Below are positions 32,700 to 34,280 of a stretch of 64,000 nucleotides of DNA, piece by piece; positions within the stretch are counted from its first letter, which is position 1, and every line of letters begins with the position of its first letter. The notes below the pieces were generated by a model. It did no database searches. It had not been told where the DNA came from and saw only the letters and a program-made list of their open reading frames with translations. Where the stretch lies: assembly GCA_023732985.1 (NCBI GenBank), contig GCA_023732985.1_3946.1. One strand, 5' to 3'. The position numbers and the translations under genes were made by a program. The DNA is from a phage.

Positions 32700-34280
32700 G
32701 AATCCTTTCCCTTTCCTTTCCAGAATCTACCCCCACTGATTCGATAGAGACTATCTCATACCTTAAAAGCAATAACTCTATAGTCTATTCTATAGCCCCT
32801 TATCAAATCAACTTAAATAAAAGCCAATAACCCCAGAAAGGGGATGGCTCATTTAAACGCTCTATAAAGCTCTATAACAGCCTTATCAACCTAACTTAAG
32901 GGATTGCATTAACCCACTCTAAAAAGCCCTTTATAAAGCTTCCTATAGCCTTAAAAGAATCTTATAAGGGTGAAAGTTTATAGGCTGGCTAGTATCTTGT
33001 GAATAACTAAACAAACCCCTTGATAGTCACTAAAAAGTATGTTATAGGGGCTATAAAGTTACTTCAAAGTAACGTAAAAAAGGCTATAAAGTTACGTAAA
33101 TGCTAGCCCCCTTAACATTTTCTTAACAATTTCTTAACAATCCCTACATAGTTATGCTTTTAAGGCACTTGTTAGAGACATGTTAGCCCCTTGTTAAATC
33201 TCTGTTAAGACCACGTAAAAGCCTTGTAAGAGTCTTTGGCATAGCCTTTAAAGCCTCTGTAAAGCCCTATAAAGAGGTGTCTGTATAGTTGGGGTGTAAT
33301 TACTAGGAAGAGACTTAAAAGAGCTTACAAGGAGCTATAGAGAGCTTTTAAGAGGGCTATTTAGAGAATCACTAAGAGGGAAAGGGAACGATAAGAAAAG
33401 AGATAGTGACCATGTTAATAGCTTGTTAAAAAGATTAAACACTTGTTAGGAACTTGTTAATTATCCCTACAAAATAACTCTTTAAAATTAACTTGTTAGC
33501 TCTCGTTAGTTATCTGTTAAGATTCTGTAAAGACTATTCAGCACTTGTTAGAAAACTGTTACAGCCTTGTTAGTTCTGTTAAGAATCTGTTAAGACCTTT
33601 GAAGAGTTGTTAAGAGCTTGAGAGAGTTGTTAAGGAATTGTTAATGATATTTTAAAATTTTGCAAAGTACTTGTAAGGGAGCTGTTAAGGGCTACCAAGC
33701 AGATATACATCTTCTACAGATATTTTTCAGTCCCTTCAAAGACCCTAAAAAATGACTTGATAGTCCTATTTTATAAAAATTTTAAAATTCTGAATAATTA
33801 CCTATACAGTCTTTTAAAAATACAGGTAGAAACAGGCTTATAAGATACCTTGTTAGTACCGTGTTAGACCTTGTGAGATAAGGTCTGTAAAGATATTCCT
33901 GTTAAGTTTGTTAAAACAGTCTATATAGAGGCTTAGTAATACCTAGTGAACACCTATAGAGAGTGTCATAGCTGACATAGAGATTAAGAGGTGTATAGGA
34001 GCTTCTAAGAGGGTATAGAGAGATGGTTAAGGTGATTGTATAGGTTGTTAAGAAGGCTTGTTAGAAGAGTGTTTAGAAGGCTTGTTAGAGGGCTAGTTAG
34101 AAGGGTTATACAGAGGGCTATTAAGCCCACTAGATAGTTACTAAGATACTATATAACTATATAGAGAGTAAGATTAAGAAGGATGTTAAGAAGGATAGAT
34201 ATTTTTATTCACATATGATGGTGACCCAGAGGTTGGGACAACCGATAAAATTTTATAAAAAATATAAATTTCGTAAATTT
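32700..34280. repeat. ORF-free region dense in short direct repeats (iteron-like)
   Basis: no ORF of 60 aa or more in any frame; dozens of TTGTTAAG/TTGTTAGA words at 8-15 bp spacing, GCTATAAAG repeats, tandem AGGCTTGTTAGAAG units. Confidence 0.7.

What the first reader, a model, noticed from the sequence alone, without database searches (positions are those of the whole stretch)
32700..34280. 1.6 kb ORF-free, repeat-dense region between convergent gene blocks
In a genome otherwise almost fully coding, this stretch has no ORF of 60 aa or more in any frame and is packed with short direct repeats. The commonest word is (C/T)TGTTA(A/G)(A/G), with dozens of copies at irregular 8-15 bp spacing (e.g. 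33170-33230, 33420-33660, 33840-33910). There are also GCTATAAAG repeats (32870-33090, including a duplicated GGCTATAAAGTTAC) and tandem AGGCTTGTTAGAAG units (34040-34110). The plus-strand block ends with a terminator-like hairpin at 32635-32688 and the minus-strand block ends near 34285-34320, so the region lies outside both flanking transcription units. This pattern fits an iteron array bound by a DNA-binding protein (replication origin, centromere-like or packaging site) or a set of unannotated non-coding RNAs.
Basis: seen in the sequence. Interest (0 to 1): 0.85.

Follow-up and report, generated by a model that had tools for sequence, protein, structure and literature searches.

The report
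Phage genome ends with phased repeats
The gene-free, repeat-packed stretch holds the physical ends of a Felix O1-type phage chromosome: a ~590-bp terminal repeat filled with about 22 evenly phased copies of TGTTA, most likely the landing pad for the DNA-packaging machinery, not a replication origin or a set of RNA genes.

Summary
Window 32700-34280 has no ORF above 51 aa and lies between two convergent terminators. It is the most strongly 11-bp-periodic segment of the 64-kb window. The window is a Felixounavirus (Felix O1-like myovirus) genome, and the stretch is conserved as non-coding DNA in more than 200 relatives.

Its core, 33106-33696, matches to the nucleotide the short direct terminal repeat (DTR, 581-613 bp) of four relatives. 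PhageTerm DTR calls are published for three of them, and all four GenBank records carry the repeat at both ends. The source record is therefore permuted, with the chromosome ends collapsed into its interior.

The DTR holds 19 forward TGTTA and 3 inverted TAACA, against 1.5 expected. Half of the spacings are exactly 11 bp and most others are near multiples. The pentamer is 98-99.6% conserved while the spacers are 80-90% conserved. Copy number varies in 11/12-bp steps, and the spacing pattern recurs in Erwinia relatives.

Best explanation: the array is a protein-binding platform at the concatemer junction that directs terminase cutting and DTR regeneration, as in T7. A candidate binder is a DUF5681 protein (41953-42324) that occupies the small-terminase position in unrelated phages. 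That the region is the DTR is already documented for relatives. I found no published description of the phased array. Interest is moderate.

The parts
32635..32688 (+). Hairpins that end the + strand gene block (last gene 32376-32624). The second hairpin, GCTCC...GGGGC followed by T7, is flanked by A-runs and T-runs and so looks bidirectional.
   Evidence: Sequence. RNA fold z = -3.3 for 32600-32719. A terminator is annotated at the same place in phage AYO145A.
32700..33105 (.). Unique non-coding DNA that precedes the right-hand DTR copy in virion DNA. It carries CTATAAAG / CTTAAAAG / CTCTAAAAAG-type units with 11- and 22-bp periodicity, and the duplicated GGCTATAAAGTTAC at 33049 and 33082.
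   Evidence: Autocorrelation peaks at lags 11 and 22. Column conservation is 0.78-0.92 in 26 relatives.
33094..33117 (.). Conserved block spanning the left DTR boundary: ACGTAAATGCTA|GCCCCCTTAACA. The virion left end begins at G33106.
   Evidence: The records of Ro111lw, Pr103Blw, D4 and ZX4221 all start with GCCCCCTTAACA, which maps to window 33106. Alignment of the boundary.
33106..33696 (.). Direct terminal repeat (DTR), 591 bp here. It is present once in this permuted window and would be present at both ends of packaged DNA.
   Evidence: In four relatives the first 581-613 bp of the record equal the last 581-613 bp and map exactly to 33106 and 33696. PhageTerm DTR calls are published: PMC6454146 (613 bp), PMC8303462 (581 bp), PMC11737134. 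The Pr103Blw record carries a repeat_region annotation for the DTR.
33111..33141 (-). Three tandem 11-bp units CTTAACAWTTT, that is TGTTA in inverted orientation, at the left edge of the DTR. Relatives carry 2 to 5 such units.
   Evidence: TRF reports period 11, 2.8 copies, 95% match. Copy-number variation is visible in the alignment. Erwinia phage Prophecy has TAACA at positions 20, 31, 42, 66 and 88 of its record start, the first three 11 bp apart.
33168..33208 (+). Sub-array 1: four YTTGTTA/CTGTTA sites spaced exactly 11 bp apart (33170, 33181, 33192, 33203).
   Evidence: TTGTTA is near-invariant with variable spacers.
33413..33459 (+). Sub-array 2: four TGTTA sites at 33413, 33424, 33444 and 33455.
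33494..33643 (+). Sub-array 3: ten TGTTA sites plus degenerate copies (CGTTA, TGTAA). The spacings include 11, 11, 9, 11, 20, 20, 11, nearly matching the pattern in Erwinia phage Prophecy (11, 11, 9, 20, 20, 20, 11).
33683..33711 (.). Block spanning the right DTR boundary: TGTTAAGGGCTACC|AAGCAGATATACATC. GGGCTACCAAGCAGATATACA is invariant in every aligned relative. The virion right end is C33696. The reverse complement GGTAGCCCTTAACA resembles the left boundary sequence TAGCCCCCTTAACA.
33697..34280 (.). Unique non-coding DNA that follows the left-hand DTR copy in virion DNA. 33700-34050 is the best-conserved part (0.94-0.98). It contains an 82% A+T block at 33765-33820 next to a TTGATA hexamer, eight further TGTTA, and a 12-bp TTGTTAGAAGGC tandem array at 34045-34104 whose copy number varies in steps of 12 or 24 bp.
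34289..34322 (-). Terminator of the - strand gene block (last gene 34328-34873).
   Evidence: Scan hit at 34309-34295 followed by CTTTTTATTG. Fold z = -2.5. Annotated as a terminator in AYO145A.
41953..42324 (+). DUF5681 protein, 123 aa. It is the candidate small terminase and therefore the candidate binder of the array. This is inference only.
   Evidence: Pfam PF18932, E = 2e-14. Invariant or near-invariant N-terminal KG-SGNP-GRP-GS motif. In unrelated phage contigs DUF5681 genes directly precede and overlap TerL. The structure model was uninformative.
49799..51415 (+). Large terminase (TerL), the enzyme expected to cut at the DTR boundaries.
   Evidence: PHROG 979, E = 1e-233. Pfam Terminase_6N and Terminase_6C.

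Best explanation
The region is the terminal region of a Felix O1-like phage chromosome, seen in a permuted record. Window 33106-33696 is the short direct terminal repeat (DTR). The flanking ~400 bp and ~580 bp are the unique non-coding DNA next to the right and left ends.

In replicating concatemers a single DTR copy joins successive genomes. Terminase must find this junction, cut at both boundaries, and regenerate a full DTR on each genome, as in T7.

The ~22 copies of TGTTA fill the DTR from edge to edge, sit on one face of the helix (11-bp phasing), and include an inverted trio at the left edge. I infer that they are the recognition platform for an oligomeric sequence-specific DNA-binding protein, most probably the small terminase. 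That protein would wrap or coat the junction and position TerL at the two conserved boundary sequences.

Shown: the identity as DTR, the array statistics, the footprint-like conservation, and the conserved geometry across genera.

Inferred: that a protein binds the array, that this protein is the terminase small subunit (candidate: the DUF5681 protein at 41953-42324), and the cutting model.
For: Taxon and conservation:
- The region matches 256-262 phage records, almost all Felixounavirus, and more than 200 of them cover at least 80% of it at 80-92% identity. None carries genes there.

DTR identity:
- Ro111lw, Pr103Blw, D4 and ZX4221 each carry identical 581-613-bp ends. These start GCCCCCTTAACA and end GTTAAGGGCTACC, mapping exactly to window 33106 and 33696.
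- PhageTerm DTR calls are published in PMC6454146, PMC8303462 and PMC11737134. Short DTRs are also reported for Erwinia Felix O1-like phages in PMC11984208.
- Further records start or end at the same nucleotides: ECP2307 exactly and GE_vB_7A within 2 nt.

Array statistics:
- 19 TGTTA plus 3 TAACA in 591 bp, against 1.5 +/- 1.1 TGTTA in shuffles. Nine spacings are exactly 11 bp, against 0.004 in shuffles.
- Autocorrelation is 0.44 at lag 11.
- The first site lies 7 nt inside the left boundary and the last ends 9 nt inside the right boundary.

Selection:
- TGTTA columns are 0.98-0.996 conserved and spacers 0.80-0.90 in 26 distinct relatives (Mann-Whitney p = 2e-13).
- The number of sites stays at 18-23 forward plus 2-6 inverted although units are gained and lost in 11/12-bp steps.
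- Suspvirus and Mooglevirus (75-78% identity) and Erwinia phage Prophecy keep the same layout and nearly the same spacing series.

Analogy:
- T7 has CCTAAAG three times inside its 160-bp repeat and eight times just beyond it, largely at 13-bp spacing.

Candidate binder:
- DUF5681 genes sit directly upstream of TerL in unrelated phages.
Against: - No reads from this phage were available, so its own termini are inferred by homology (about 90% identity, boundary blocks invariant).
- No binding data exist for any protein.
- The small-terminase assignment of DUF5681 rests on gene order alone. The AF2 model was poor (pLDDT 68) and Foldseek found nothing. In this genome the gene lies 7.5 kb from TerL.
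- Nine TGTTA copies lie outside the DTR, eight of them to the right, so the array is not strictly confined to the repeat.
- The inverted-repeat symmetry of the two boundaries is imperfect: the cut positions differ by about 4 nt relative to the shared TAGCCC..TTAACA element.
- More than 20 sites is far more than known terminase recognition sites use.
Confidence: 0.62

Rival explanations
1. The phased TGTTA sites bind a protein with a job at the chromosome ends other than packaging. Possible jobs are protecting the incoming linear ends from RecBCD, pairing the two DTRs for recombination or circularisation and concatemer formation, or controlling DNA ejection.
For: The evidence for a conserved protein-binding array confined to the ends is the same as for the best explanation. 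More than 20 sites would suit a coating or pairing protein better than a classical pac site. The arrays extend into the left-end unique DNA.
Against: No candidate end-binding protein was identified; all ten flanking gene products are of unknown function. The boundary blocks and the edge-to-edge fit to the DTR are most simply tied to cutting.
Confidence: 0.17
2. The array is an iteron-type replication origin. A phage or host initiator binds the repeats and opens the adjacent A+T-rich DNA.
For: The region has directly repeated short sites and a conserved 82% A+T block at 33765-33820. It lies between convergent transcription units at the turn of cumulative GC skew. Two TTATTCACA DnaA-like boxes flank the DTR.
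Against: - The skew turn coincides with the switch of coding strand and needs no origin.
- The DnaA-like boxes are not conserved: TGTGAATAA becomes TGTGAACTA and TTATTCACA becomes TTGTTCACA in many relatives.
- No IHF consensus site and no recognisable initiator gene nearby.
- The array boundaries coincide with the virion ends, which an origin would not require.
Confidence: 0.1
3. The region encodes one or more non-coding RNAs, for example a repeat-rich sponge RNA carrying many Shine-Dalgarno-like TAAGAGG units.
For: The region is long, conserved and ORF-free. TAAGAGG/TAAGGAG-like units are frequent on the + strand to the right and on the - strand to the left. A conserved TTGATA hexamer sits upstream of an A+T-rich stretch at 33759.
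Against: - No Rfam family matches apart from a sub-threshold hit on the flanking terminator.
- Promoter-like sites are no more frequent than in shuffles (10 against 8.4 +/- 2.9) and none scores above 9 of 12.
- RNA folding z-scores inside the region are near zero on both strands.
- Conservation falls on a 5-nt word at DNA helical phasing, not on paired stems.
Confidence: 0.04
4. The repeats are neutral by-products of replication slippage in dispensable terminal DNA and have no function of their own.
For: Unit copy number does vary by slippage-like 11-, 12-, 22- and 24-bp indels.
Against: The pentamer is far better conserved than the spacers. The number and spacing of sites persist across genera whose DUF5681 proteins (41953-42324) are only 59% identical. 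Parts of the region are better conserved than the neighbouring genes.
Confidence: 0.05

Closest known systems
Bacteriophage T7 terminal repetition with its adjacent short-repeat arrays (CCTAAAG heptamers)
   Same: Both have a short non-coding direct terminal repeat at fixed ends. Both carry a short word repeated many times in one orientation inside and just beyond the repeat at near-helical spacing. In T7, CCTAAAG occurs three times within bases 1-160 and eight times in 175-340, largely 13 bp apart; I checked this on NC_001604. That packaging proceeds from concatemers with regeneration of the repeat is established knowledge for T7.
   Different: The word differs (TGTTA against CCTAAAG), as does the period (11 against 13 bp). 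The repeat here is longer (~590 against 160 bp) and site density inside it is much higher. There is an inverted trio at one edge. Genes on both sides run towards the ends, whereas T7 has early promoters at its left end. The phage is an unrelated myovirus with a T4-type TerL.
Terminase recognition sites built from repeated short elements (P1 pac hexamers, lambda cosB R sites, SPP1 pacL/pacR boxes); recalled from the literature, not tested here
   Same: All use several copies of a short motif flanking or adjoining the terminase cut site, read by the small terminase subunit.
   Different: Those sites have 3-7 elements within 100-200 bp. This region has ~22 copies over 590 bp, plus further arrays outside the repeat and two cut sites.
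Plasmid R1 parC-type centromeres (tandem 11-bp iterons bound by a ribbon-helix-helix protein); recalled, a 'works like' comparison only
   Same: Both have head-to-tail short sites at one-helical-turn spacing that would let a protein polymerise along one face of the DNA.
   Different: This is a lytic phage, no partition genes are detectable nearby, and the array coincides with the virion DNA ends.
Published short-DTR calls for Felixounavirus, and a DTR-type packaging call for Kolesnikvirus (Ro111lw 613 bp, Pr103Blw 581 bp, D4, Erwinia phages Fifi106 and Fifi318)
   Same: For the Felixounavirus records this is the same element at the same nucleotides. For the Erwinia phages only the packaging type is reported.
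   Different: Those reports give only the length and the packaging type. None of the passages I read describes the motif array, its phasing or the boundary sequences. The Felix O1 genome paper mentions only that short terminal repeats are suggested.

Membership tests
Short direct-terminal-repeat (T7-type) genome ends | The same sequence is present at both ends of the packaged linear DNA. | tested here: met
   Met for four close relatives: record start equals record end over 581-613 bp, mapping to window 33106-33696. For this phage itself it is inferred by homology, because no reads were available.
Short direct-terminal-repeat (T7-type) genome ends | Ends are fixed, not permuted, at defined nucleotides. 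| tested here: met
   Records from three laboratories begin at the identical nucleotide (GCCCCCTTAACA) and end at the identical nucleotide (GGGCTACC). PhageTerm DTR classifications are in PMC6454146, PMC8303462 and PMC11737134. The sequence across both boundaries is conserved; at the right boundary GGGCTACCAAGCAGATATACA is invariant.
Short direct-terminal-repeat (T7-type) genome ends | Terminase cuts at the repeat boundaries and the repeat is duplicated during packaging. | not testable with these tools
   This needs biochemistry or analysis of concatemers. TerL is present at 49799-51415.
Terminase small-subunit recognition site (pac/cos-type) | The small terminase binds the repeated elements specifically. 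| not testable with these tools
   There is only a candidate protein, the DUF5681 product at 41953-42324, which occupies the TerS gene position in other phages. The structure model was uninformative.
Iteron-type replication origin | An initiator gene adjacent to the iterons, or other recognisable origin hardware (conserved DnaA boxes, IHF site). | tested here: not met
   The ten flanking proteins have no Pfam hit and belong only to unknown-function PHROGs. The DnaA-like boxes are not conserved and there is no IHF consensus.
Iteron-type replication origin | An A+T-rich unwinding element next to the repeats. | tested here: inconclusive
   A conserved 75-82% A+T block lies at 33740-33820, just outside the DTR. 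It could equally be a promoter or spacer.
Structured non-coding RNA | A match to a known RNA family, or a promoter plus conserved secondary structure. | tested here: not met
   Rfam search at E up to 1 returned only a terminator artefact. Promoter-like sites are at the shuffle level. Fold z-scores are about 0 inside the region.
Partition centromere (parS/parC) | Adjacent ParA/ParB or ParM/ParR genes. | tested here: not met
   No such domains occur in the flanking genes.

The most novel reading that the evidence does not exclude
The phased TGTTA array is the recognition code of a previously unassigned small-terminase family, DUF5681. About 20 subunit-sized contacts at one-helical-turn spacing would wrap the whole 590-bp terminal repeat around terminase oligomers, and the inverted trio at one edge would set the polarity of the two boundary cuts. 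This would give Felix O1-type phages a defined packaging signal and assign a function to DUF5681.
Probability: 0.3. Interest if true: 0.55.

Novelty: new member of a known kind. Interest (0 to 1): 0.35.

Why it matters
Felix O1-like phages are widely used for Salmonella and E. coli typing, biocontrol and therapy, yet most deposited genomes are opened arbitrarily and leave this 1.6-kb stretch blank.

Recognising it as the chromosome ends fixes the correct start and end (GCCCCCTTAACA ... GTTAAGGGCTACC) for more than 200 genomes. It also explains why assemblies break or collapse here.

It marks DNA that must be kept intact when these phages are engineered. The footprint-like, helically phased pentamer array gives a concrete, cheaply testable hypothesis for how a short-DTR myovirus recognises its packaging junction, together with a candidate protein.

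The DTR assignment itself is already in the literature, so this is a refinement of known biology and not a new kind of element.

Tried and rejected
- Rfam search of 32000-35000 at E up to 1: only a sub-threshold Phe-leader hit on the flanking terminator.
- Sigma-70 promoter scan: 10 weak sites against 8.4 expected.
- Sliding RNA-fold z-scores on both strands: no signal except at the terminators and a small hairpin near 32830.
- DnaA, IHF and Chi scans: two DnaA-like boxes, not conserved.
- Pfam and PHROG searches of ten flanking proteins: all of unknown function.
- DUF5681 protein: no PDB sequence match, AF2 model at pLDDT 68, Foldseek against PDB with nothing below E = 1.
- tblastn of the DUF5681 protein against annotated phages: annotated only as 'hypothetical' or 'DUF5681'.
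- Search for comparable phased arrays near DUF5681 genes in unrelated phage contigs: none within 8 kb.
- Literature searches for a description of this region in Felix O1-type phages and for the T7 repeat arrays found nothing specific. I therefore verified the T7 arrays directly on NC_001604.
- Record RPN213 is opened at window 33775 without a repeat; I treated this as an arbitrary opening, not a terminus.
- The resemblance of CTGTTAA-N4-CTGTTAA to OmpR/PhoB-type direct-repeat boxes was considered only as an analogy and not pursued.

Full report
**What the window is.** The 1.8 kb around the finding matches 256-262 phage records, almost all Felixounavirus (Felix O1-like myoviruses of Escherichia, Salmonella and Shigella). 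About 200 of them cover at least 80% of it at 80-92% identity. The window also carries the 25-tRNA island, TerL, portal and head genes typical of this group. In annotated relatives the stretch is empty between two convergent gene blocks, with terminators marked on both sides. A few records call tiny ORFs that other records do not.

**Checking the observation.**
- No ORF longer than 51 aa touches 32700-34280.
- TGTTA occurs 28 times on the + strand there, against 1.46 per kb elsewhere in the window and 2.9 +/- 1.7 in 2000 dinucleotide-preserving shuffles.
- The strict word YTGTTARR has 17 copies, so 'dozens' is true only of the core.
- The GGCTATAAAGTTAC duplication and the 12-bp tandem array at 34045-34104 are real.
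Within the core, 9 of 18 TGTTA spacings are exactly 11 bp and most others are 9, 20, 21 or 31.
- Base autocorrelation peaks at lags 11, 22 and 32 (0.44 against a 0.27 baseline, with flat coding controls).
- A scan of all 64 kb puts its four most ~11-bp-periodic 300-bp windows here.

**What it is.** In the distant-mode search, several GenBank records begin or end inside this region at the same query position. I fetched both ends of four of them.
- Ro111lw, Pr103Blw, D4 and ZX4221 each carry an identical sequence of 613, 581, 581 and 591 bp at both ends.
- All four start GCCCCCTTAACATTTTC and end GTTAAGGGCTACC. These map to window 33106 and 33696 to the nucleotide.
- The Pr103Blw record annotates these ends as 'short direct terminal repeat region'.
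- Published PhageTerm results report a 613-bp DTR for Ro111lw (PMC6454146), 581-bp repeats for Pr103Blw (PMC8303462) and DTRs for D4 (PMC11737134).
- Short DTRs are also reported for Erwinia Felix O1-like phages (PMC11984208).
- ECP2307 starts, in reverse orientation, exactly at the right boundary, and GE_vB_7A ends within 2 nt of it.

The window therefore comes from a permuted record, probably opened by the rIIA convention described in the Felix O1 paper. The two chromosome ends are fused there through one collapsed DTR copy. In virion DNA, 32700-33105 precedes the right DTR copy and 33697-34280 follows the left copy. The genes on both sides are transcribed towards the ends.

**Anatomy of the repeat.**
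- The 591-bp DTR holds 19 forward TGTTA and three inverted copies. The inverted copies are the 11-bp units CTTAACAWTTT at the left edge.
- The first site lies 7 nt inside the left boundary and the last ends 9 nt inside the right boundary.
- Sites cluster in sub-arrays at 33168-33208, 33413-33459 and 33494-33643.
- In an alignment of 26 distinct relatives, TGTTA columns are 0.98-0.996 conserved while the spacer columns are 0.80-0.90 (Mann-Whitney p = 2e-13). Spacers such as GAGAC, GCAAC, GTAGC and GTAAC interchange freely between invariant TTGTTA cores.
- Units are gained and lost in steps of 11, 12, 22 or 24 bp. The total nevertheless stays at 18-23 forward plus 2-6 inverted sites in repeats of 567-658 bp.
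- Suspvirus and Mooglevirus (75-78% identity) keep the layout.
- Erwinia phage Prophecy starts its record with phased TAACA copies (three of them 11 bp apart) followed by TGTTAAG arrays. Its spacing series (11, 11, 9, 20, 20, 20, 11) nearly repeats that of the window (11, 11, 9, 11, 20, 20, 11).
- Both boundaries sit in conserved blocks: ACGTAAATGCTA|GCCCCCTTAACA and GTTAAGGGCTACC|AAGCAGATATACATC. At the right boundary GGGCTACCAAGCAGATATACA is invariant.
- The two boundaries share TAGCCC(CC)TTAACA in inverted orientation, but the cut positions are offset by about 4 nt. I record the symmetry as suggestive only.
- Parts of the unique DNA, especially 33700-34050, are better conserved (0.94-0.98) than the neighbouring genes (0.82-0.93).

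**How it most likely works.** The established model for short-DTR phages, best known from T7, is as follows. Genomes are joined in concatemers through one repeat copy. Terminase recognises the junction, nicks at the two repeat boundaries, and the repeat is duplicated so that each packaged genome has two copies.

A five-base word kept invariant at one-helical-turn spacing across the whole repeat, with free spacers and a conserved site number, is the signature of an oligomeric protein binding one face of the DNA. The edge-to-edge fit to the repeat ties that protein to end formation. I therefore favour terminase recognition (confidence 0.62).

A candidate binder emerged. The 123-aa product of 41953-42324 carries DUF5681 (E = 2e-14) with an invariant or near-invariant N-terminal KG-SGNP-GRP-GS motif. 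In unrelated metagenomic phage contigs, DUF5681 genes directly precede and overlap TerL, which is the canonical small-terminase position. In this genome a Ro60-like gene and the tRNA island separate it from TerL. This assignment is inference only: the AlphaFold model was poor and fold search was empty.

**Rivals.**
- A non-packaging end function (end protection, DTR pairing for recombination, ejection control) fits the same data and cannot be excluded (0.17).
- An iteron origin (0.10) has in its favour only the repeats, a conserved A+T-rich block at 33765-33820, and the skew turn. The skew turn is explained by the change of coding strand. The DnaA-like boxes are not conserved and no initiator is evident.
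- Non-coding RNAs (0.04) lack an Rfam match, a credible promoter and any structural signal.
- Neutral slippage (0.05) is contradicted by the conservation pattern.

**Comparison with known systems.** The nearest analogue is the T7 terminal region. On NC_001604, CCTAAAG occurs three times within the 160-bp repeat and eight times in the next 180 bp, largely 13 bp apart, with more copies before the right repeat. The present element differs in word, period, repeat length, site density, the inverted edge trio and the convergent gene layout. It also belongs to an unrelated myovirus. Terminase sites made of repeated elements (P1 pac, lambda cosB, SPP1 pac) and 11-bp-iteron centromeres (R1 parC) are functional analogies recalled from the literature and were not tested here.

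**Novelty and verdict.** That Felix O1-type phages have ~0.6-kb DTRs at this location is already documented for several relatives. The Felix O1 genome paper only surmised short terminal repeats and did not discuss this region. In the papers I could search, I found no description of the phased TGTTA array, its footprint-like conservation, the boundary blocks, or a link to DUF5681. I rate it a new member of a known kind, with moderate interest (0.35). It is a real, functional, well-defined element and is useful for annotation and engineering, but it is not a new type of system.

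Noticed in passing
window 1-64000: GATC does not occur at all in 64 kb, against about 211 expected from a second-order Markov model. CTGCAG (0 against 24), CAGCTG (0 against 15.5) and ATGCAT (0 against 13.9) are also absent. This points to strong restriction- or Dam-site avoidance.
   Followed up: partly
window 41953-42324 (+): A DUF5681 protein is the first gene after a sigma-70-like TTGACA promoter. 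In unrelated phage contigs DUF5681 genes overlap the start of TerL, so the family may be a small terminase.
   Followed up: partly
window 41800-41950: The divergent promoter region and 5' leader carry CTTAAAAG / TAAGAGG-type units like those of the terminal region, plus the palindrome CAGATATCTTTCTGGATATCTATC.
   Followed up: no
window 42406-43821 and 43987-49369: A Ro60-like (DUF2828/DUF7788, PHROG 'RNA-binding protein') gene sits directly upstream of the 25-tRNA island, between the DUF5681 gene and TerL. The PhageMaP preprint proposes that the Bas63 homologue counters the ppl defence system.
   Followed up: no
window about 14980, 27430, 29100: Intergenic hairpin elements of the form GGGGCTTAAAAG...AAGCCCC with adjacent CTGTAAAG recur between early genes. 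They probably correspond to the 57-bp direct repeats listed in the Felix O1 genome paper.
   Followed up: no
window 32830-32845 (-): A terminator-like hairpin (ATCCCCTTTCTGGGGT followed by TATTGGCTTT) sits on the minus strand inside the right-end unique DNA. 32720-32839 folds with z = -3.1 on that strand. Its function is unknown.
   Followed up: no
L009 2480-2880 (Erwinia phage Prophecy, right-end unique DNA): The Erwinia relative has its own dense array of TTCTAA(R) units, more than 12 copies, at the position of the CTATAAAG-type units of the window. The outer arrays have therefore diverged in sequence but not in architecture.
   Followed up: no
L028 (IMG/VR contig end), GenBank GU169904: One metagenomic contig breaks about 16 nt inside the DTR left boundary, as expected for an assembly break at a terminal repeat. 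A record labelled 'Staphylococcus phage SA1' contains this Felixounavirus region at 86% identity and is probably a chimeric or contaminated record.
   Followed up: no
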